This document shows positions 52-28,400 of a stretch of DNA of 28,421 bases, one piece after another. Within the stretch, counting starts at the first letter, position 1; each line of letters begins with the position of its first letter. Source of the stretch: Macrostomum lignano. Taxonomy: Eukaryota. Location of the stretch: NCBI GenBank assembly GCA_002269645.1, contig NIVC01005022.1:1-28421 (forward strand), given 5' to 3'. The translations under genes and the position numbers were made by a program. The notes beneath the pieces were generated by a model. That model worked only from the letters and a program-made list of their open reading frames with translations. It had not been told where the DNA came from and did not search any database.

Positions 52-1854
52 CTGTTCAGTGCAAGCCCCGCAAAGTCTCCAGGTCGATCTGCTCCTGGGC
101 GAACTGGTCCGCCAGGTCGCCAAGTCCCAGCCGCTGCAGCACCGACTCTACAGTCTCCTCAGACTGCGGCTCCGCGTCCTCCGCTGCCGCCTCCGCCTCC
201 GCCTCCAGCGCCTGCGCAACATCGCCGTTGGCGCTGGCCGACCCGGACGACTCGATCACGTCGAAGGCGAGGACGCCGCCAAGGCCGTGACCGGCGATGG
301 AGAAGCCGCCAGAGTAGGCGGTTCCTGGCCGCGAACAGCGACGCAGGCGGCACAGCTCGGCCGCCAGCCGCGGGCGCCGCTCGGCAAGTCGGCGGGCCTC
401 CCCGGCGGCCAGCGCGTCGGCCAAGCAGCCGCCGGAGCCGCGGCACCGAGGAGGGCGTCAGGCGGGCCATCAGGCGGGCATCGATAAGCGGAGGCTGCCG
501 CCACACGGCCGGCAGGAACTCCAGCGGCCGGGCCGGTGCGGGAAGTGGCTCCGCATGAGGTCCGCGCAGGTCCGCCGGATTCGATCGGCCGCGCCAGCGG
601 GTGCTGACCGGCGCCGGCGTCGGGGACCAGCAGGATCACGTGATCGATGGGCTGCCACTCACCCTCGGGCAGGGCGCCCACCAAGTGGCCGGTGCGCGCA
701 CCGTAGGGTCCAGGGCCTGGGGACTCACCGGGGCCGGTGGCCGGCGCCACCCGGTACTGCAGCAGGTCGGCGGGGCCCTGGAATACGAAGGCCGTGTCCG
801 CCTGGCCCAGCGACGCAGGCAGGCGGATCTCCCGGCGCCAGGCGCCGGTCTCCACAGCCGAGCGGTACTGCAGCTCCAGCTGCTCGCTGGTGGCCTCATC
901 AAAGGGAGCGAGCACCCCCGAGGAGTCGGCCTCGGCCCGGCGGAACCAGGTGCAGCGGCGGATCGGCAGGTCGGGCTCCTGCCAGTAGGCCGCCCGCTTC
1001 ACCCTGGCCGGCAGCCAGGCGTCGTACCGGCCGCCGTCCACCGGCACCGGCGCCTCCGACATGGAGTTGGCGGCCTGCTCAAGGCGCTGCGAGTCGTGGC
1101 CAGTAAAGGGCATCCAGATCTTCTCCTGCCGTTGCTGGCCGGCCTCCGCCTCCGCATCCCAGTCGTCAAGCGGCTGCTCAAAGAACCAGTGCGCCTCTGG
1201 CGGCCGGTAGCCGCTGAAGAGGCCGGGCGGCGGCCCGCCGGCTGTCGGATCGGCAACTGCCGGCACCGAGGAGGCCACCGCCGACGCCGCAGCCGTTGTC
1301 TGGTAGCCGCCGGCAGCAGAGTTTGAAGAGTAGGAGACGGGCGGCGGCTGGAACCCGGATTGCTGCTGCTGCTGCTGGTAGGATGCCAGAGATGGCGGCG
1401 GAGGCTGCGCGGAAAACGCTGTTGAAGAGGCGGCTGTCGCCGGCGCCGCGGAGCCAGAGAAGGCGGCGTCGGCCGGCGGCACCCAGCGACGCTGCGGGAG
1501 GCCGCCGAAACGGACGCCACCAGTGCCGCTGGGAGGAGGCGCTGCGGGTGGCGGCGCGCCAGCGGCGGGTGGCGGCGCCGCGGCCGGCTGGCCAAGGAAG
1601 GAGTCCTCGTCCAGGGCTTCCAGCTCCTCGAAGCCGCCGCCAACGACGCTGCTGGCCGCTCCGCTGGGCAGCTCGGCGGCGGCCGCGGGCGGAGGCGGCG
1701 GCGGAGGCGGCGGCGCAGGCGGCACCAGCATGGCGGGCAGCTCAAACGCGATGCCCTGATTTGAGGCTGCGAACAGCAGCGATGGGGCGGCTGCCTGGCC
1801 GCTGGGGGTGGCGCTTCGCTCGCGACTCTGCGATGCTCGGTGATGGTCGGACAT
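52..1854 (-). CDS. SEC23IP: SEC23IP/DDHD2-family protein, large coding exon (Pro-rich N-terminus, WWE-like region, lipase-like domain, start of SAM domain); frameshifted in this assembly; gene continues left of the window
   Basis: Joined frames give HWFF..WMPFTGHDSQRLE, VDGGRYD, AYW..IRRCTWF, IDHVILLV, RSHF..GR(V)EFLPAVW, FSIAGHGLGGVLAFDVI and SAM-like SVESVLQRLGLGDLADQFAQEQIDLETL. A splice donor CAG|GTGAGC lies at 52/51. Start may be ATG 1854 or 1911. Orthology (SEC23IP vs DDHD2) is not resolved. Confidence 0.85.
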
Positions 1855-8254: not shown

Positions 8255-8820
8255 TTGAGCATCAGAAACTTCCCTTGAGCACTGGAATCTCAGAAACTTC
8301 CCCTTGAGCACTGGAATCTCAGCAACTTCCCCTTGAGCACTAGAATCTCAGAAACTCCCCTTGAGCATTGGAATCTCAGCAACTTCCCCTTGAGCACTAG
8401 AATCTCAGAAACTTCCCTTGAGCACTGGAATCTCAGAAACTTCCCTTGAGCACTGAAATCTCAGAAACTTCCCCTTGAGCACTAGAATCTCAGAAACTTC
8501 CCTTGAGCACTGGAATCTCAGAAACTTCCCTTGAGCACTGAAATCTCAGAAACTTCCCCTTGAGCACTAGAATCTCAGAAACTTCCCTTGAGCACTGGAA
8601 TCTCAGAAACTTCCATTGAGCACTAGAATCTCAGAAACTTCCCTTGAGCACTGGAATCTCAGAAACTTCCCTTGAGCACTAGAATCTCAGAAACTTCCCT
8701 TGAGCACTGGAATCTCAGAAACTTCCCTTGAGCACTGGAATCTCAGAAACTTCCCTTGAGCACTGGAATCTCAGAAACTTCCCCTTGAGCACTGGCATCT
8801 CAGCAACCCCCCTTGAGCCC
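8255..8820. repeat. 28-29 bp minisatellite, about 19-20 copies
   Basis: Unit GAAACTTCCC(C)TTGAGCACT(G/A)GAATCTCA, period 28 (e.g. 8641 to 8669), ending in a poly-C tract. Confidence 0.95.
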
Positions 8821-9787
8821 CCCCCCCCTGAGCGAAGACTTTTATGGGCGCGAATTTTCGGCGTACCGGATCGCGGACCGAATGAATGAAAGCGGTTTTC
8901 TTATTCTCCCCACTTTGACAAAGGCGGCGGGTATTGGCATTACGAAAGAGCGTCCCTAAAGTGGGTGCAGCCATATCAAATGTGAAATCTATAAGAAGTG
9001 GTTGTCTAATGTACGCTGTATATTAGACATATAACGCCGCACATTTGGCAGGTTGAATGAAACATGCCGTAAAATTTAATTCACTATACGGACTAAAAGA
9101 GAATATAAGGGATCTATGAAAAAGCACATACCATTGTACATTGTCTTATGATACAAAAACATACGGGTACAAATGTACGTTTGAATGTCCAGTTAGTCAT
9201 TGTAAACTGTTTAACTGAGTCTAAAGCTGTCTTTGTGTACACAAAAGGCAGAGCTGAGGCAGTGAGACATGTTTTCATGAGTTCAAGTTCCCTAGCTGCT
9301 TTTTCTCAGCTCTTAGTCTTTACTCGTGCAAAGGTCAAATACTTTTCCGAATGCCGTGCGGACACGCCTGCCGGCCATGTCAGCCCAATAAATATCTTCT
9401 TGACTGCTGCGACTTCAGCTGTGTGTCCAGTTGCGACAATTCCAATCAGACAACATCGAAGGCGCGCTTCATCTGGATTCGGCAGCTCAGTTGCGCCAGC
9501 TGTCTGAGAGCGACAGGAAAACCAGAGCTGTTTCCCTGATTAAGTACTCCGCTATTCCTGTCACCGACATCGAGCTGGTGCTGCCGAATAATAACAGTTC
9601 GACGAAGAGGACCTGCGGTAACTGGCAGATAAATTCGAAGTCTAAAGCACAGCGTGTCTGAAGGACAATTTCTGAAGGACATCAGGGGTTGGAAACATTT
9701 TTTATCTTAAGGCTAGATGAAGAATCCAGTTCAGGCCGTGCGCCATGTGTGAGTGGAAAGGAGAGAGAATAGAAGCTGAGAGGCGAG

Positions 9788-10484
9788 AGTAGAAGGCATG
9801 AGGGGGCTTTTGGGACAAAATTTTTCACGTCCTCCATAATCCCATTAAATCCATCCATATTATCCCCGACAGAATCAGAAAAAAAGGGGGTCGCACTCGC
9901 TCACAAAACGTCCTCCATAATCCCATTAAATCCATCCATATTATCCTTGACAGAATCATGAAAAAGGGAGGGGCCGCACTTGCTCCGAAAACTTCGAACA
10001 TAATCCCATTAAATCCATCCATATTATCCCTGACAGAATCAGAGCAGGTGTCCACTGATACCTGTTATGCTCACTGACACAGACATAATCCACTGACATC
10101 CACCCATAGCATCTTCGAAACAATAAGAAAATAATCTGCACTCTTCTCCCCACATTCAATCCGAAGCGGCGAAACCAGATCCCAAAGACTTTAAATCATC
10201 AGCGCAGGGTCCTTACCCTTTGAAAAAAAATTAATTTCTCAATAAAAATGTTTCCAGTTGTCTCTCCAGGTTCCTATTATACTCAGCCTCATCCATTGTA
10301 CAAATCCAAGTACCAATGCAAACTAGAATGCAGCGAATACATGAGAAAATATTGTCCCGGCATTGATATCAATGTCCCTAATATTAATCAAGCACTTAAA
10401 TCTCACTGGTTTCATAAGTATGGAGTAACCTACGTAAAAGATTACGACAGCTACTATAACTTTGCTGAAGTTATAAGGCAGTTG
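9788..10484 (+). repeat. Left terminal inverted repeat (~700 bp), with three 81-83 bp subrepeats and an ORF
   Basis: Reverse complement of ~24720-25403; homology ends near the stop of the embedded ORF. Confidence 0.93.
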
Positions 10485-10487
10485 TAG
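10248..10487 (+). CDS. 79-aa TIR-encoded protein of unknown function (left copy)
   Basis: AAAAATG start; 66/79 identical to the right-TIR copy, with about 12 synonymous codon differences. Confidence 0.75.
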   Translation: MFPVVSPGSYYTQPHPLYKSKYQCKLECSEYMRKYCPGIDINVPNINQALKSHWFHKYGVTYVKDYDSYYNFAEVIRQL

Positions 10488-10548
10488 TAGACAACTACAA
10501 GGTTGTACCTGGCGGCTTATATCCTAATTTTACAAGTCTGAAGACGAC

Positions 10549-11406
10549 TCACATTCTCTCAATAATAATTGTTAACACAAACTCTTCCCCGTTAAAATCG
10601 ACACCAACTCCATCCTCTGTTTCAAACAGCAGAACGATTTCATGTATCTCCCTATTACTCAGAATCACTCTTTTCACAGGGTTTGGCTTTTGCACAAGCA
10701 TTTTGCCACCAGCAACAGAGTTTGAAATGTTAAAAAGTATGTTGGTTCGTTTGCCTTTGAATATCCAATCATGGCTCAGATTGCTACGAATTAATATATT
10801 CAAACCTTTGACAATGTCAGCGATATTTGGCGCCAAGTACATACCGGATATTAGCCGGGACACAGCAACAGTGCCAGGCGCCTGCAGCGGGCTTTGGTCT
10901 GTGGCGCCACCATAAACTCTCTTTTCAAATCCCAACTCGCGATACCAAGTGCCATCTTTAAACTCTACCTCTGCGTCCTTATGAACTTGCAAGATAACTC
11001 TCATGACAGTTAGATCATAAGTTAATCTAACAGGGAACAGTTTATTTTCTGGTTTGCTTTCATCCGGTATCTCAAAATGCTTTCGTTTAGTGAAGACATT
11101 CTCCAAGAAGTAATTATAAGTATCCACGCTCTGTGTGCTGACAGGAAATATCACAACCTCTGTTGTAGTACGCTTCCATTTGTAATAAAACTTGTTATTT
11201 TCCGTTGTCACATTGGGAACATTTGACCACCCAGTGAAATCATTGAGATAGACGTGGTAATTCGCCTCGGGATCCAAACGAAGTGGTTGCTCCAATTTTT
11301 GAATGAAGATTCCGTTTGACTCAGTAATGCGACCCGCTACAGTGATTGGAATGCTCTCCTTAGAGTGTGAAACAATGTTGTTCAGTCTTTCGGCTATGGC
11401 TTCCAT
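10549..11406 (-). CDS. Minor capsid (penton-like, single jelly-roll) protein
   Basis: Intact 285-aa ORF next to the MCP. Pattern LEQPLRLD..YHVYLNDF.GWSNVPNV...NNKFYY and C-terminal IHEIVLLFETEDG..VDFNGE match Polinton/adintovirus pentons. Confidence 0.8.
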   Translation of the reverse strand: MEAIAERLNNIVSHSKESIPITVAGRITESNGIFIQKLEQPLRLDPEANYHVYLNDFTGWSNVPNVTTENNKFYYKWKRTTTEVVIFPVSTQSVDTYNYFLENVFTKRKHFEIPDESKPENKLFPVRLTYDLTVMRVILQVHKDAEVEFKDGTWYRELGFEKRVYGGATDQSPLQAPGTVAVSRLISGMYLAPNIADIVKGLNILIRSNLSHDWIFKGKRTNILFNISNSVAGGKMLVQKPNPVKRVILSNREIHEIVLLFETEDGVGVDFNGEEFVLTIIIERM

Positions 11407-11427
11407 TTTTTTATTGAAAAAAATTAT

Positions 11428-21933: not shown

Positions 21934-22956
21934 TTAATTAATTTCTGTGTCAGCTGGTATCACTAGGAGTTCAGCTCTAGTGAATGACCGCGTGGGGGAT
22001 TTAGGGTTAAAGGCTGAGATAAAAAGTAATAGTCACCGGAGTCGGAGGTAAAATGTCTGTCTATTTTATGTACATCAAGGCTGAAGTATGGATCTGTAGC
22101 TCTTCTTTTGGTGTCTTTCTCTAGCTCTCCAGGTAGATATAAAAAGCGTAGAAACTCAGAGTTTGTCAGTATGTATGGTGATTCAACTCCTGGAAGCTTA
22201 GGGTAGTTCGAGGTGTGTTTTGTGTTGTGTGTGTTGTGTGGGTTGTCGTGTTGTTGTCTGTTTTATGAGATGCCTTAAGTTCGACAGTGTCTTGTTTAAT
22301 TGCATGGGATGGTTTCAATCCAGTCATGCGTGTGACTTCATTGTTCAGTTGCTCTATAACAGTGGGGAGCTCTGTCCACTTGATAGTACTGCCACTTTTT
22401 AGTTTCAGCTCTTCAGCTGTCTGCTTAGTGAATAGCCTCTTGGCTAGAGTTAGATTGAATCTTTCCACAAAAGCCTGGTCTCTGTGCAAGTTTGTTCTGC
22501 CATAGCGAATCTCTGTGTGCTTTTCCATAAGGGATTTCACTGCACCCATGAATTCCTTACCCGGGTCGGTCATAAAATTTCAGGGTATGGGGGAGAGTTT
22601 TTATAAATATCTTGCAGTGCGCTGGCAACAACCTCTGACTTCTTCGTCTTGAGTGGGCGAGCTTCCTTATATCTGGAAGCAACGTCTGTAATTGTGAGAG
22701 CATACTTGTAGCCCGAGTCATTGGGGAGAAACAAAAGATCTGCTTGGTGCGCTTCATTAGGTTTATAGATGCTAAAGTGAGGTCTTGTAAATTTTACTGG
22801 TGGGAAATAGACTTGAAAGACAGCCTGCTTAGAGAGCCATTTTTCTACTGTAGCTTTTGGTTCCTTACTCAGCTCCATGAGTTTACTAACGGCATTTTTT
22901 CCTACAAAGAATCCTTTGTCGCTGTAGTAGAGTTTTTTAAGTTTTTGATCTGTCAT
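21934..22956 (-). CDS. int: Retroviral-like DDE integrase (~341 aa after three +1 repairs)
   Basis: HQADLLFL (D), TDPGKEF (D), FVERFN (E). The C-terminus RFLYLPGELEKDTKRRATDPYFS..PTRSFTRAELLVIPADTEIN* is missed by the ORF track; 1023+3 nt = 342 codons. Confidence 0.93.
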
Positions 22957-22986
22957 TTATTTAAAAAGAAAATTTTAAATAAAATA

Positions 22987-23445
22987 ATGCAGCGCTCTGG
23001 TGGTAAGTTAGATTCACATGGACTGATAGAAAAGCTTCCTCATCCGAACAAAGGCTGGACACTTCCCGGCTATAAATATTGCGGGCCTTTGAATCCACTT
23101 GAAATACAGCTAGATAAAAACAATAATCCACATCCTGGGCATGAGCCTGTGAACGAGCTAGACTCTGTCTGCATGTGGCATGACGTTAAATATAGAGATT
23201 TTCCTGAGGAGAAGAATCGTTGGGACAAAGAAATGCTTAAGAGACTAGACAATATAGGGGCTTCAAGCGGATTTCGCGAGTCTATTGCTAGGAAATTAGT
23301 CAAGGCGGTTATTTTTGGTAAGTCTAAGTTGGGGTTGGGGGTGTACGCCGAGGGCGGTGTTTGGGGAGAGAAGGTGGGTGCACGGGGAGAGAGGGCGGAC
23401 GCTCGGGAGCGGGGTTTATTTTGTGTGCTCCAAACGAGGTACTAG
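22987..23445 (+). CDS. Parvovirus VP1u-type phospholipase A2 (adintovirus PLA2X-like)
   Basis: LPGYKYCGPLN (Ca-loop-like), PVNELDSVCMWHDVKY (HD dyad). True start is most likely ATG 22987 (MQRSGG), not 22744. Confidence 0.88.
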   Translation: MQRSGGKLDSHGLIEKLPHPNKGWTLPGYKYCGPLNPLEIQLDKNNNPHPGHEPVNELDSVCMWHDVKYRDFPEEKNRWDKEMLKRLDNIGASSGFRESIARKLVKAVIFGKSKLGLGVYAEGGVWGEKVGARGERADARERGLFCVLQTRY

Positions 23446-23844
23446 GAAGACTGCTGAAAGAGCTGGGGGTTGAGAGAGACGCTTGAGTCGGGAAAGATTA
23501 TTCGCAGCCAAGCGCAACAGCTGCATTTTGAAAGGGGGGGGGGTAACTGCTATTTTCTGAGGGAGCGCAAAGTTCCACGCGTGCATTCCTTTCCGCTTTG
23601 ACAACCGGAGGGAAGGAAGCGGGTGGAGGGAATCGATCGCTCGGAAGCTAGTTAAAGCAAGCAAGAAAATTCAGCTTATTTCGCCCGCAAACGTTCTTCG
23701 TCACGCAATACTGCACCGTTGTGGCTGCTGATTTCATTATGTTGTAAGTTTATTCGTTTTTTTTACTTACTGAAATTCTATCCTGTGTTAAGAATTGAAA
23801 ATTCTCTTATTTTAATTAAATCTTTGTTTTTAGTTCACAAAAAA

Positions 23845-24132
23845 ATTACGTTCTACTCGACCGACCTAGAAAATCTCCACGACGGTCGCCTTGTTGAAGG
23901 ATTAGATGCCGACGAGCAGGCATCAGAGCGAATTCAAGAAGTTCTCCACAATTTCTTCAATGAAAAAGTTGAGAACCAGCGAATTCGTTCAAGAGCGGCC
24001 ATGGAGACCCAGGATCGCAACTATGCCATGAGAACCGAAATGGTGTTTGACGAACTTCGCCGATCATTTGTTGCTGATGAAGATTCACTTCTTAGTTATC
24101 AACAATTTTTTTCTGGGATTTTATTAATGTAA
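23845..24132 (+). CDS. Acidic helical accessory ORF of unknown function; start uncertain (ATT at 23845 after an A run, or spliced)
   Basis: TFYSTDLENLHDGRLVEGLDADEQASERIQEVLHNFFNEKVENQRIRSRAAMETQDRNYAMRTEMVFDELRRSF has protein-like composition; the upstream part of the 23719 ORF looks like AT-rich intron or UTR sequence. Confidence 0.5.
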   Translation: MTFYSTDLENLHDGRLVEGLDADEQASERIQEVLHNFFNEKVENQRIRSRAAMETQDRNYAMRTEMVFDELRRSFVADEDSLLSYQQFFSGILLM

Positions 24133-24495
24133 GCTACTCATAGTAGTCTTCTAAACACTTTCCTGGATCTCCAGGATTTTTTTAAACTCGTGCCAATTCC
24201 TGACAATACAGGAATTCCTGACAATACAGGAAAGTCTTTTTACTCGATTTTTTCAGGATTTTATCAATGTAAGCTACTCATAGTAGTCTTCTAAACACTT
24301 TCCTGGATCTCCAGGATTTTTTTAAACTCGTGCCAATTCCTGACAATACAGGAATTCCTGACAATACAGGAAAGTCTTTTACTGGATTTTTTTCCAGGAT
24401 TTTATCAATGTAAGCTACTCATAGTAGTCTTCTAAACACTTTCCTGGATCTCCAGGATTTTTTTAAACTCGTGCCAATTCCTGACAATACAGGAA
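24110..24495. repeat. 140-141 bp tandem repeat (~2.7 copies) built around TTCCTG-N6-CAGGA(A/T) palindromes
   Basis: ATGTAAGCTACTC recurs at 24127, 24267 and 24408; eight palindromes counted. Confidence 0.92.
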
Positions 24496-24715
24496 AGTGC
24501 TGTTCACAAAATGACCGGGAGGAAAATCAATATTATTCTGAATCCGAAGAATATCGATTTTGGATTGTTTCATTTCCAACCTTGCAACTAGCTTGCACGT
24601 CGCGGAAGAAAATTCTCAGCCGGATAGCCCTGCACACTCAGTGTCTGCTCTTTCCTCCTTATTTCCTCCTGTTTTATGTAAATATACTTGCGAATAAATG
24701 AACTCAGTATGTTTT

Positions 24716-24958
24716 TTAACGCAATTGCTTAATGATTTCTGCAAAGTTATAGTAGCTGTCGTAATCTTTTACGTAGGTTACTCCATACTTATGAAACCAG
24801 TGTCTTTGGAGAGCTAGATTAATATTAGGGACATTGATTTCAATGCCGGGCCAATATTTTCTCATGTACTCGCTGCATTCTAGTTTGCATCGGTACTTGC
24901 TCTTGTAATTAGGCTCGTCCGCTTTGTAATAAGAACCCGGAGAGACAACTGGAAACAT
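24716..24958 (-). CDS. 80-aa TIR-encoded protein (right copy)
   Basis: Paralogue of 10248-10487, with the same AAAAATG start and both copies pointing into the element. Confidence 0.75.
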   Translation of the reverse strand: MFPVVSPGSYYKADEPNYKSKYRCKLECSEYMRKYWPGIEINVPNINLALQRHWFHKYGVTYVKDYDSYYNFAEIIKQLR

Positions 24959-25403
24959 TTTTATTGAGAATTTAATTTTTTTTCAAAGGGTAAGGACCCT
25001 GCGCTGATGATTTAAAGTCTTTGGGATGTGGTAGCACGTTGCGGATTGAATGGGGGGAGAAGAATGCAGATTATTTTCTGATTGTTTCGAACATGCTATG
25101 GGTGGATGTCAGTGTCAGTGAACATAACAGGTATCAGTGGACACCTGCTCTGATTCTGTCAGGGATAATATGGATGGATTTAATGGGATTATGGAGGACG
25201 TTTTGTGAGCGAGTGCGACCCCCCTTTTTTTCTGATTCTGTCAGGGATAATATGGATGGATTTAGGTGGATTATGGAGGACGTTTTGTGAGCGAGTGCGA
25301 CCCCCCTTTTTTTCTGATTCTGTCAGGGATAATATGGATGGATTTAATGGGATTATGGAGGAGGTGAAAAATTTTGTCCCAAAAGCCCCTCATGCCTTCT
25401 ACT
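24720..25403 (-). repeat. Right terminal inverted repeat with three ~81 bp subrepeats
   Basis: Reverse complement of the left TIR; ends GCCTTCTACT at 25403. Confidence 0.93.
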
Positions 25404-28400
25404 ATCCAGACATTGCATTTAGAGCTCCATTCGATCGGCCAACTCCCCAACGCTGCATTGATGCCCAGACAACGGATATTCCTGTTGGAAAGGGGCTGTA
25501 CGCTTCATCAGCCGAACTTTAATAGCTAGATGTACATGTACAAACTTTTGTGCTCATGATATACAAACTGGTGTTCATCTTTATGTCGCTTTTGTTTTGC
25601 TTTAAAAAACTACATTACATGTAGGACCCTGTAGAGATTGATAGTACGACTTAATCTGTTAAAATCTTTAGCATGTTAAAGAAATGATGGTAGTGAAAAC
25701 AGGCAAGGCACACTGTAATGCAGCAAAATATATTTTGGACCTACATGTAGCAGTATACGAGCTCATGCTATTTGGTCGCTGCAGTAGTTTCTTCTCGTTA
25801 GATTTTAGCTAGTAGTAATAGCATATCTAGCTGCATGTCAATTAAAGGCCTAATTGACTCCTAATTTCTACTTTATGAGATATCAGACTTTCAGCATCAG
25901 CACTAATTTGATGGCACGTCCCCTATTACTGCCAGTAGAAATAGAAATTTCTTCTTCCCTTTTTTTTATCGGATCTTTTCAATATATTTACCTTTCCTCT
26001 CTCCTATCTTCGCTTCTTCCTATCCTTTGTCTCCCCTACTAATTATCTTTGCTACTTTTATGTTTTTTCTTATTTTTCATCGGGATTGTATACCAGCATA
26101 CTTTTTTCGGATCATGATCATATAAATCACCAGATTGTCAAGGTATTAGACGGACACCTGGCATGCATGCCTGCGGGTATACAGGTTCCTGATGGTCTGG
26201 GAGAATTTCTCATTTGTCAATCACATAAGAATTTGGCACGTGTGACGATATATTTTGACAGCTGTGAACTTTGCCCCTACACTAAAAGTACATGTATATT
26301 CGTTTTAATCCTACAATCATCTCGCGGATTTGGCAAAATCACCTCTCCTCTTCATCCCCGATCTAATGCATATTTCATGTTAATTTTGGACTTGAAATTC
26401 TAAAACTCATAAATAAATTTATATAAATAAAATTGGATGATTTATGGCCGCACCTATATCGCTTTTTGAGGATTCCCAGGGACCTGTAGGATCTCTCGGC
26501 TTTTCAGGTCGTGGTAGCTAAATGCATGCTTCAGCCGATCAGAAAATTAGACAGGGCGTTTTACCAAATCGGCTCAGCCAATCAAAATCGATGTGTTCTA
26601 ATTGTAACAAATCCCAACCCAAGCTACGAGCATAATTGGTTCCAAACAGTATTCAGTCAACCAACCATTTTGAATCAGAATTCAAGTCAGTCATGTACTT
26701 TATTGCTAACTTAGGCATCAAAGCGGCTTATATATCCACATGTATGTAAGCTAGAACCCACCAGCTACATGTAAGGGTCTCAGAGCTAGGGCTAATATAT
26801 TAGTTTTTAGTCACATTTTATGGCCAGAATCAATCGCGTGCATAGGAATTTGATAATGTAGTACATATATGTGTATATTTCACGAACCTATAGTCTTGCA
26901 GCCTAGCAACAAGAAGAACCCCTCTGCAAAAATATGCTATCCAGTAAGAGTACCGTCCCTTTTTCGGCTGACTTCGCGATTCAACTAAAAGACACCAGTT
27001 GGCACATCAGTTCAGGGCCTCTCCTTGAGTCGTGGTAACCCGATTCGAGAGAGAGCCGAGCGGCAGGTTTGGTGAGCCAGTTTTTGCATGAGTTGGTGGC
27101 CAGCTGATTAGCTTAATCTACGGATTAGCTGTTTTTGCCTTTAAAATTCTCCTGCTTGTCTCTCGCTGTATACTTTCTTAGGTAATAGGAGCTACATGTA
27201 GCTCATGTTCGGCACATCTAAATTATGATATATTCAGATTTGCAGATGTGCAAGCCGCGCCTAAGACACATAAAAAGACAGTGGCCTTGTCCGATAAATC
27301 GTGATCAACTTGCTAACGACTCTTAATTTTATACTTTTTTATTTTTTAACGCAAGTTACTGCTTTACTATTAATTTAATTTTTTTTAATAATTATCAAAG
27401 GAAGTATATTCTATTCTCAGAAGTTGCATTTTTTGTTTTGATTAAACTATAGATAAAATGTTTCAAAGTCAAAAACTTCCAATTGCAGGAATTCGTAAAA
27501 GCTGTGTGAGAGAGAGTATTGAGAATGCGAGCGACATTTTTGCATGACGTCACATTTGACATGTACAGTTTGTAACTTAGAGTGGGAGAACCACGTATAT
27601 AAGTTCGTGTATTTTTCATAGGATCTATTTTACTCTTTTTGAAGGCCGTAGAGGTTGTCCTGTCCCAAGAGTAATTGTGGAATCGAAGCAGTGCATTATC
27701 TTAATCTTATCAATGCCGAAAATTAATAAAATCTGCTAAAGTTCCTTATTTTATTTTGCTTGCAATTTACTATAGGCCCAGATAGGCTCTCTTGTAGGCC
27801 TACTAAAGATCTAGGCCTAATCCGTTTTATATCATATTTATTTTTTGAATTTATTCAGATATATCTCATGTGCCATCCCATCTGCCATGTCCATGGCGGC
27901 AAACTGTTATTGTTTAAGATCAAACTTTTATCGAAATTTATGATGACTAAAACCTATATTAGTTCATATTGAAAACAGTATATCATTTTTGGCAATCTTT
28001 TAGTTTTGTCCATTTGATTATTTTTCAACTGGCAACTATTGCAGCTTTAATTTAATTAACATTTTAACAAATGTTGTAAACCTTTAAGTTAAAAGGCAAA
28101 ACTTATTATATTATATTTAGTATTTAACTTTTTTATATTTGCAATTTGGCAGACATGAATTTTATGCTTCTTAAACTATTATATAATTAACTTGACATTG
28201 GTAAAAGTTGGCATGACTTAGCTTGGCACAAAATCAAATTAAAAAAATATCTATCTAGATATATTATTTATGCTTTTTACCACATCACTAGCTTGATATA
28301 TAACTTAGTATAAAATCAAATTAAATGTTCAAAACTAGAAAATCAATCCATTTTTGTTGCCTTTTCATAATGAAATTAATGTTTTTATATTTAATCATTT

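What the first reader, a model, noticed from the sequence alone, without database searches (positions are those of the whole stretch)
10248..10487. A protein gene embedded in both TIRs, with two diverged copies that both look selected
Seen: both TIRs carry an inward-facing ~80-codon ORF. The copies differ at 13 of 79 residues and at about 12 synonymous codons, with no stops or frameshifts. Differences cluster in patches separated by identical tracts (e.g. HWFHKYGVTYVKDYDSYYNF). CKLEC and HWFH are kept in both, suggesting a C-x3-C..H-x2-H metal site. TIR-encoded genes are not among the standard Maverick core genes. Inference: an unknown terminal gene family, with mosaic gene conversion between ends.
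Basis: partly seen in the sequence, partly recalled or inferred. Interest (0 to 1): 0.72.

Follow-up and report, generated by a model that had tools for sequence, protein, structure and literature searches.

The report
Maverick end gene resembling ribonuclease T2
A virus-like transposon family with hundreds of matching ends in this genome carries a small gene, under purifying selection, just inside one or both ends; the gene is likely a shortened relative of ribonuclease T2, and the two versions in this window belong to two different insertions joined in one contig.

Summary
The ORF is a real gene of a high-copy Maverick family: 95 of 105 sampled ends are intact, piN/piS is 0.32, and selection shows only in variants shared between copies.

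The window's two ends are not one element's ends. There is no target-site duplication. Each end's true partner and empty site lie on other contigs, so the contig joins two insertions (misassembly or ectopic recombination).

The phenomenon is still real elsewhere: 18 of 27 TSD-flanked elements carry different alleles at their two ends. Identity is polar, high near the tip and lost inside the ORF. Mosaicism is element-wide recombination, not ORF-specific, and some elements carry the gene at one end only.

The C-x3-C/H-x2-H metal site fails, because the second His varies. The protein has no sequence homologues, but Pfam, PDB and a language-model search weakly point to the CAS II half of RNase T2, with CAS I missing. 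It is likely a non-catalytic derivative. Expression is untested. The scan had no earlier look-alike.

The parts
10248..10487 (+). Terminal accessory ORF, left copy, 79 aa (insertion 1)
   Evidence: A-rich leader and AAAAATG start shared with core genes
24716..24958 (-). Terminal accessory ORF, right copy, 80 aa (insertion 2)
10323..10439 (+). Residues 26-64: the stretch that in other alleles matches RNase T2 profile positions 66-101 (M-x-x-Y-W-P ... H-x-x-x-K-H-G); this allele has Tyr at the last His
   Evidence: the window's own alleles give no Pfam hit at E 0.1
9788..10465 (+). Left end: AGTAG terminus, three ~82-bp repeats (9806-10043), leader and most of the ORF; no substitution against its true partner on C2688 over these 678 nt
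24711..25403 (-). Right end; no substitution against its true partner on C4651 over the outer 465 nt, then 49 substitutions in the ORF
9782..9787 (+). Left flank hexamer GGCGAG (TSD of insertion 1; the other copy is on C2688; empty site on C571)
25404..25409 (+). Right flank hexamer ATCCAG (TSD of insertion 2; the other copy is on C4651; empty sites on C4492, C3340 twice, C3992)
16000..21300 (.). Zone in which the window switches from insertion 1 to insertion 2; most likely 19669-21301, where the two are identical
10549..11406 (-). 285-aa ORF, minor-capsid-like by position only (no Pfam hit; label inferred)
11428..12723 (-). Major capsid protein (double jelly roll, PF21738, E 3e-8)
14554..15354 (+). 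Packaging ATPase (PF04665, E 8e-7)
16991..17392 (-). Adenain-like protease (PF00770, E 2e-4)
17456..21341 (-). Protein-primed PolB region, in several ORF pieces in this assembly (PF03175 E 2e-4 on one piece, below the family cut-off)
22166..22956 (-). rve integrase, in two ORF pieces in this assembly (PF00665 E 1e-5, below the family cut-off)
22987..23445 (+). Parvovirus-type PLA2-like gene (PF08398, E 5e-14)

Best explanation
The ORF is a real accessory gene that sits just inside the non-coding terminal repeat of a high-copy Maverick family, is shuffled by recombination among copies, is likely copied from one end to the other when the ends pair during replication, and likely encodes a shortened, non-catalytic relative of RNase T2; the window itself joins the left half of one insertion to the right half of another.

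Shown: coding selection; the gene at one or both ends; fine-scale mosaicism across the whole element; identity between true partner ends that is high near the tip and lost in the inner half of the ORF; the chimeric state of this contig.

Inferred: (a) replicating copies exchange segments, giving molecules with two unlike ends; (b) the displaced single strand folds into a panhandle and one end is re-copied from the other, from the tip inward for a variable distance, so the TIR boundary moves and often falls inside the ORF; (c) the protein descends from a T2 ribonuclease of which only the helical CAS II region is kept; (d) with CAS I absent it would bind RNA or a protein partner rather than cut, and so would damp a host RNA-based response or help the element's own RNA. 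My odds: real gene 0.9; contig joins two insertions 0.93 (misassembly rather than a true rearrangement about 0.7); tip-inward copying 0.65; T2 descent 0.6; non-catalytic RNA-binding role about 0.3.
For: Coding: piN/piS 0.32 over 95 intact copies; variants shared by 5 or more copies 0.29, singletons 0.76; no stops only in this frame; 33 of 62 informative sites at third positions. Same start context as core genes.

Chimera: no TSD; true partners with TSD and empty sites on other contigs. Window vs C2192 1/5029 mismatches at 10500-15600. At 12247-15600 window vs C1069 20/3237, while C4651 vs C1069 3/3237. At 21301-24700 window vs C1069 15/3363 but vs C2688 100/3213.

Recombination: 47 of 55 block pairs show all four gametes; r2 falls from 0.60 (1-10 nt) to 0.07 (61-120 nt). 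Alleles reproduce between contigs that hold the same insertion end: 0-2 substitutions in the 11 cross-contig duplicate pairs.

Polarity: within/between divergence 0.22-0.38 from -170 to +120 but 1.13-1.17 from +120 to +237 (27 TSD pairs). Differences are shifted inward in 17 of 20 pairs, p 0.001.

T2: PF00445 E 0.0026-0.08 for 7 of 10 alleles given and 4 of 24 members. T2 enzymes are 3 of 4 and 3 of 3 PDB hits and the top Atlas hits, score 0.88. One host T2 paralogue scores above shuffles (6 and 13 of 3000). Three predicted helices flank and cover the motif.
Against: All T2 scores are below Pfam's cut-off (18 vs 26 bits) and rest on one 39-residue stretch. The alleles that score were picked after I saw the motif. 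The window's two alleles and the whole-family profile give no T2 hit. The second host paralogue does not beat shuffles (518-2564 of 3000), and the window alleles are marginal against the first (167 of 3000). The Atlas scores are under its 0.9 lead threshold, with low recognition. The model is modest (pLDDT 65).

Polarity is not universal: 3 of 20 pairs go the other way and several true pairs differ throughout. Sixteen of the 27 pairs were picked because both ends ranked among top hits, which favours identical ends. p-values treat related copies as independent. Short-read polishing of a repeat could add some artificial mosaicism; interior sites of these contigs are visibly mixed. The panhandle step is not observed here, and one paper notes that direct evidence for panhandles is lacking (PMC11886824, passages).
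Confidence: 0.55

Rival explanations
1. One reading: one element whose two TIR genes diverged under selection and were patch-converted between ends, encoding a small zinc-binding protein.
For: dN/dS 0.30 and patchy differences. C24 (93 of 95), C28 and H53 (95 of 95) are conserved. Elements with two unlike alleles exist, including insertion 2 itself (20 aa differences, dN/dS 0.38).
Against: No TSD, and the true partners lie elsewhere. H56 varies in 17 of 95. At about 90% family identity most columns are invariant, so conserved Cys and His mean little. His/His, His/Tyr and Tyr/Tyr classes among 27 TSD pairs are 1/9/17, close to random pairing, so two kinds of allele are not favoured in one element.
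Confidence: 0.1
2. The gene, its recombination and the chimera are as described, but the T2 likeness is chance. The protein is a novel three-helix orphan, for example a DNA-binding regulator of the 82-bp terminal repeats or a calponin-homology-like cytoskeleton binder.
For: No homologue in 5.8 billion proteins. The only hits among 1.84 billion representatives are three unrelated repeat proteins. Many of the top 50 structural rows are calponin-homology domains (Hook3, IFT81, Hec1, augmin). The gene lies next to a repeat array.
Against: Three different methods put T2 first. The motif keeps T2's His-x-x-x-Lys-His spacing. The CH rows have Z of about 3.9 or less, below the level the tool calls meaningful, and no sequence support.
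Confidence: 0.3
3. The His-bearing alleles are active nucleases, or complete an active site with a partner, and act as a toxin or anti-host RNase; the Tyr alleles are regulators or decoys.
For: 12 of 95 copies keep the equivalents of His113, Lys117 and His118 of human RNase T2 (residue roles from PMC3458558, passages).
Against: CAS I (His65) and the beta-sheet are missing. The Glu114 position is Trp in all 95. The majority allele lacks the last His yet is equally conserved.
Confidence: 0.08
4. The ORF is not a gene; low dN/dS and mosaicism come from DNA-level constraints in the TIR or from assembly polishing.
For: Interior consensus is mixed between copies.
Against: Only one of six frames is open; it has the lowest ratio (0.32), and the only other low one (0.43) is an antisense frame with about 8 stops. 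Singletons are near neutral but shared variants are not. A one-codon deletion allele keeps the frame in 14 copies. Duplicated assemblies agree.
Confidence: 0.04

Closest known systems
Animal Mavericks/Polintons (adintoviruses), PLA2X-type
   Same: pPolB region, rve integrase, ATPase, protease, DJR capsid, PLA2-like gene; 5'-AGT termini and 6-bp TSDs in other copies. TIRs of 100-1500 bp and TSDs of 5-8 bp are described (PMC10748475, passages); accessory regions and TIRs of 46-1447 bp in vertebrates (PMC8097293, passages); PLA2X in Alpha-type modules (PMC8502044, passages).
   Different: A selected small gene lies across the TIR's inner boundary, at one or both ends, and true partner ends often differ in it. 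No RNase or ribonuclease is mentioned in PMC8502044's main text (0 occurrences). This contig's copy is a join of two insertions.
Genes in the terminal repeats of poxviruses and megamimiviruses; ITR expansion
   Same: Diploid terminal genes, with a boundary that moves by copying one end to the other (PMC10230479, abstract). TIR genes are under weaker purifying selection than core genes (PMC13712841, passages); here 0.31 against 0.17 for the neighbouring minor-capsid-like gene (the latter pooled over two subtypes).
   Different: Those are kb-scale and have hairpin or giant-virus ends. Here the boundary moves over tens to hundreds of bases within one 240-nt gene of a protein-primed, integrating element.
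Panhandle homology restoration in adenovirus/PRD1; TIR regeneration in endogenous mavirus-like elements
   Same: Ends re-matched by pairing of the displaced strand is the standing model (PMC11886824, passages). Truncated EMALEs regained TIRs (PMC8547959, passages).
   Different: Here a population of integrated copies records the gradient directly, including incomplete copying; the mechanism remains inferred.
RNase T2 family (PF00445; human RNASET2 3T0O, Actibind)
   Same: M-x-x-Y-W-P followed about 17 residues later by H-x-x-x-K-H-G in the His alleles. Non-catalytic roles of T2 proteins are known (PMC3458558, passages).
   Different: 78-80 aa against about 200 or more; no CAS I; Glu to Trp; no Cys after KHG; Tyr for the last His in most copies; intronless, whereas the host's T2 genes are split at this motif.

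Membership tests
Maverick/Polinton (element family) | pPolB and rve integrase | tested here: met
   PF03175 E 2e-4 and PF00665 E 1e-5, both below the family cut-offs, on ORF pieces
Maverick/Polinton (element family) | DJR capsid, packaging ATPase, adenain protease | tested here: met
   PF21738, PF04665, PF00770 above cut-off
Maverick/Polinton (element family) | TIRs starting 5'-AG(T) and a 6-bp TSD | tested here: met
   25 of 32 end pairs have a perfect 6-bp TSD, 2 have 5 of 6, 4 none, 1 not callable
Single intact insertion (this window's copy) | Both ends share one TSD and one empty site | tested here: not met
   GGCGAG vs ATCCAG; separate empty sites and partners
RNase T2 family | Score above the PF00445 cut-off (26 bits) | tested here: not met
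   best 18.3 bits, E 0.0026; window alleles none
RNase T2 family | CAS II motif (His-Glu-x-x-Lys-His) | tested here: inconclusive
   His and Lys kept, Glu is Trp in 95 of 95, last His in 12 of 95
RNase T2 family | CAS I with its catalytic His | tested here: not met
   the match begins at profile position 66 of 188 with only 25 residues before it; no conserved His there
RNase T2 family | alpha+beta T2 fold | tested here: inconclusive
   three-helix model, pLDDT 65; structural searches gave no match above Z 4.3
RNase T2 family | Ribonuclease activity | not testable with these tools
   needs an assay
C2H2-type metal site (C-x3-C..H-x2-H) | All four ligands conserved | tested here: not met
   H56 is E, L or Y in 17 of 95 intact copies
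Calponin-homology domain | CH fold or Pfam CH match | tested here: inconclusive
   many CH rows, all at Z of about 3.9 or less; no CH family among 24 members at E 10

The most novel reading that the evidence does not exclude
An animal Maverick captured the CAS II half of a T2 ribonuclease and keeps it as a fast-recombining, often diploid terminal gene, a mini pseudo-nuclease that acts against host RNA surveillance. The hundreds of integrated copies also give a direct population record of tip-inward TIR repair by the panhandle route, which has been a model without direct evidence.
Probability: 0.3. Interest if true: 0.72.

Novelty: new variant of a known kind. Interest (0 to 1): 0.5.

Why it matters
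If T2 descent holds, this is a Maverick accessory gene of a kind I did not find in the papers searched, and a natural minimal T2 fragment kept by selection after losing half its active site. That bears on the non-catalytic functions reported for T2 proteins. Independently, the family shows how Maverick TIRs are kept matched: identity decays from the tip inward and the boundary moves through a gene, which makes the panhandle-repair model testable on genome data. The practical lesson is that a Maverick with unlike TIRs and no TSD in a repeat-rich assembly can be a join of two insertions.

Tried and rejected
Homologue searches: none for the left allele or for the 24-allele alignment at longer and near lengths. 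The 1.84-billion search gave 3 hits, all unrelated tandem-repeat proteins whose weak scores add up over repeats; rejected. Viral and metagenome contigs held no relative. PHROGs gave one E 0.12 hit for 1 of 3 proteins. A look for outside T2 homologues with a host exon could not be run because the query was too short, so no profile-profile test against T2 was done.

Structure: the single-sequence model had pLDDT 47 and was not searched. The alignment model (pLDDT 65) had no Foldseek match at E 0.001 in PDB or BFVD. Best VIA Z was 4.3, and no T2 chain was among the 50 rows shown of 129. The second look found nothing. This absence shows neither likeness nor difference.

Expression: no RNA holder listed. 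Contigs of runs only guessed to be RNA cover the ORF but also the non-coding repeats; contigs show neither strand nor level, so I draw no conclusion.

I first read the flat linkage in the minor-capsid-like gene as showing that recombination is confined to the ends. One search showed this came from two capsid-module subtypes; rejected. The '35 of 42 broken' count mixes subtype indels with lesions and is not used. The second host T2 test picked the wrong exon and was redone. The idea that ends without the ORF hold a different gene at the same start was checked: no forward ORF starts there, and other cargo lies further in. Of 40 partner stretches asked for, 38 existed: 11 held the ORF, 8 a terminus only (6 with TSD, 2 in the wrong orientation and dropped), 19 neither.

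Literature (full-text library, Creative Commons papers only; no supplements read, and these may list such ORFs): Maverick + Polinton + terminal inverted repeats + a guessed host genus, 0 papers; the same with gene conversion, 5 listed, passages of one read, none on this; RNase T2 + Polinton, 1 review where the terms are unrelated; none of 30 listed of 291 papers in a wider search had 'RNase T2'. Searches were seen as listings only, apart from the papers cited.

Full report
Setting. The window is the whole of contig C5022 of a 764-Mb genome. A Maverick spans 9788-25403 with AGTAG termini. Pfam finds a DJR capsid, an A32-type ATPase, an adenain protease and a PLA2-like gene above cut-off, and pieces of pPolB and rve integrase below cut-off. 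The polymerase and integrase are in several ORF pieces in this assembly.

The observation. ORFs of 79 and 80 codons face inward from both ends. The inverted homology runs from the tips to about the stop codons.

The gene is real. Searches of the genome gave 525-626 first-look candidates, of which only the best 40 or 150 were scored. I extracted 117 ends, 105 distinct by flank; 95 have an intact ORF and 10 are broken. This sample is biased to close, intact copies. piN/piS is 0.32. Variants seen once give 0.76 (not different from neutral, p 0.21); those in 2-4 copies give 0.44 and those in 5 or more 0.29 (shared variants p 5e-7, treating copies as independent). This is the pattern expected if selection acts on replicating lineages and inserted copies then drift. 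Only this frame is free of stops; four other frames give 1.07-1.73, and one antisense frame gives 0.43 with about 8 stops. The start has the same A/T-rich leader and AAAAATG as the capsid, ATPase and protease genes.

The window's two ends belong to different insertions. The flanks are GGCGAG and ATCCAG, whereas 25 of 32 end pairs examined have a perfect 6-bp TSD. Contig C571 has the left flank without this insertion. What follows there matches for 320 nt (99.4%) the flank of an element end on C2688, which carries TSD GGCGAG and has no substitution against the window's left end for 678 nt. Four loci hold the right flank without the element; the sequence before it flanks an end on C4651 with TSD ATCCAG. 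That end has no substitution against the window's right end for 465 nt. Interiors agree. The window matches C2192 (1 mismatch in 5029 at 10500-15600). C4651 matches C1069 (3 in 3237) where the window does not (20 in 3237). At 21301-24700 the window follows C1069 (15 in 3363), not C2688 (100 in 3213). The switch lies between about 16 and 21.3 kb. The four other contigs break inside the element, and C2192 plus C1069 cover the whole window, which favours a misjoin; a true ectopic crossover is not excluded. The window pair's 47 differences are typical of unrelated ends (median 40), not of partners (median 12).

The phenomenon is nevertheless real. Among 27 TSD-verified pairs with the ORF region at both ends, 7 are identical in the ORF and 18 differ at 5 or more sites. 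Insertion 2 itself has alleles 20 residues apart. Relative to unrelated pairs, partners differ at 0.22-0.38 of the rate from -170 to +120 of the start codon, but at 1.13-1.17 from +120 to +237. In 17 of 20 pairs with 3 or more differences these are shifted inward (p 0.001); 10 of 20 have a rank of 0.7 or more, against 1.7% of unrelated pairs. Six TSD-flanked elements have the ORF at one end only, and in 4 of them identity stops 8-12 nt before the start codon. So the constant TIR is the non-coding 300-600 nt, and the gene sits where its inner boundary wanders. Copying from the tip inward in a panhandle intermediate fits this. It is the standing model for homology restoration in adenovirus and PRD1, though without direct evidence (PMC11886824, passages). 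Regenerated TIRs in truncated virophage elements (PMC8547959, passages) and poxvirus ITR expansion (PMC10230479, abstract) are precedents. The step is inferred.

Mosaicism is element-wide. In the ORF, 47 of 55 block pairs show all four gametes, there are 57 block haplotypes among 95 copies, and r2 falls from 0.60 to 0.07 within 120 nt. The same decay occurs in the non-coding TIR, and in the integrase and PLA2-like genes (12 copies each) and the minor-capsid-like gene within one subtype (33 copies). The patches therefore reflect recombination among copies generally, with end-to-end copying laid on top. Polishing artefacts could contribute, but the 11 insertion ends assembled on two different contigs agree to 0-2 substitutions.

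What the protein is. The proposed metal site loses its fourth ligand in 17 of 95 copies. No true homologue was found in any protein or contig collection. A weak signal recurs, however. The Atlas ranks RNase T2 clusters first for two alleles (0.88, a lead only). Pfam PF00445 is hit by 4 of 24 members and by 7 of 10 further alleles, mostly chosen for the motif (E 0.0026-0.08, residues 26-64 on profile 66-101 of 188). Human RNASET2 and Actibind are 3 of 4 and 3 of 3 PDB hits at E 0.05-0.4. Two His-type alleles beat shuffles against one host T2 paralogue (6 and 13 of 3000), the window alleles only marginally (167 of 3000), and none against the second paralogue. Against this, the window alleles and the whole-family profile find nothing, all scores are under the family cut-off, and the three-helix model (pLDDT 65) has no significant structural match. 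Mapped without gaps on human RNase T2 (His65; His113, Glu114, Lys117, His118; PMC3458558, passages), the ORF keeps His113 and Lys117, has Trp for Glu114, has His118 in 12 of 95 copies and Tyr in the rest, and lacks the CAS I half. I put T2 descent at about 0.6. It is not a family member by the tests above, and it most likely does not cut RNA. An RNA- or partner-binding accessory role is inferred and untested. His and Tyr alleles pair at random within elements (1/9/17), so there is no sign that two kinds are needed together.

Novelty. Genes in terminal repeats and moving boundaries are known from poxviruses and giant viruses (PMC13712841, passages; PMC10230479, abstract), and Mavericks have variable TIRs and accessory regions (PMC8097293, PMC10748475, PMC8502044, passages). 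I found no paper on a TIR-straddling or T2-like gene in Mavericks in the searches listed under Tried and rejected; the library is incomplete and no supplements were read. The scan's earlier notes had no look-alike by sequence and nothing for this genome; related notes on Maverick ends in other genomes were seen and not tested. Verdict: new variant of a known kind, interest 0.5. The headline pair is a join of two insertions, but the family-level gradient and the T2 lead are worth following.

Noticed in passing
window 10549-15354 vs loci L162-L199 and others: Two capsid-module subtypes occur in the family: minor-capsid-like gene and MCP are about 75% and ATPase about 80% identical in one group and 98-100% in the other, while the pPolB stretches recovered are 96-100% identical and the ends and terminal ORF are shared. 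This suggests a module swap within one family.
   Followed up: partly
L173:4710-5585, L180:2000-2674, L190:6878-7498, L166:3949-5330: Other copies carry different sub-terminal cargo ORFs of 97-250 aa with no Pfam family above cut-off; several look alike by eye in a helical stretch.
   Followed up: partly
L237 (G000:C4945:19500-27000); also C3540, C2606: A family element ends about 1.3 kb upstream of an exon of one of the host's RNase T2 genes; no such terminus was found in the matching stretch of C195. Probably chance.
   Followed up: partly
L237:3767-3880: This host T2 paralogue has Glu in place of the first CAS II His (R-E-E-F-K-K-H-G), whereas the other has N-H-E-Y-T-K-H-G; it may be a reduced-activity T2.
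   Followed up: no
L150:320-900 (G000:C571): A second family end with a degenerate terminus lies about 170 nt beyond the empty site of insertion 1 and begins in the C2688 flank too: insertions cluster here.
   Followed up: no
G000:C276 289943/299869, C2140 107646/122077, C869 288518/309999, C975 122827/133278: Some copies have inverted arms identical beyond 1.5 kb, duplicating the minor-capsid-like gene at both ends in at least C276 and C2140; C827 has two ORFs only 2.5 kb apart.
   Followed up: partly
L112/L113 (G000:C716): Both ends have the same flank in inverted orientation and no TSD: a large palindrome or a fold-back assembly artefact.
   Followed up: no
window 24108-24521, 15731-15890, 8273-8868, 13427-13582: Three ~140-bp repeats inside the right end, an 84-bp tandem duplication in a small ORF, a 28-bp host satellite left of the element, and a Gln/Pro-rich repeat in the 244-aa ORF.
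   Followed up: no
window 256-1854 (-): Host GC-rich ORF with WWE domains (PF23464, E 1e-6).
   Followed up: no
window 10276 (run X14): One contig of another sample departs after codon 10 into a variant of the 5' block not seen in the assembly sample, hinting at further alleles.
   Followed up: no
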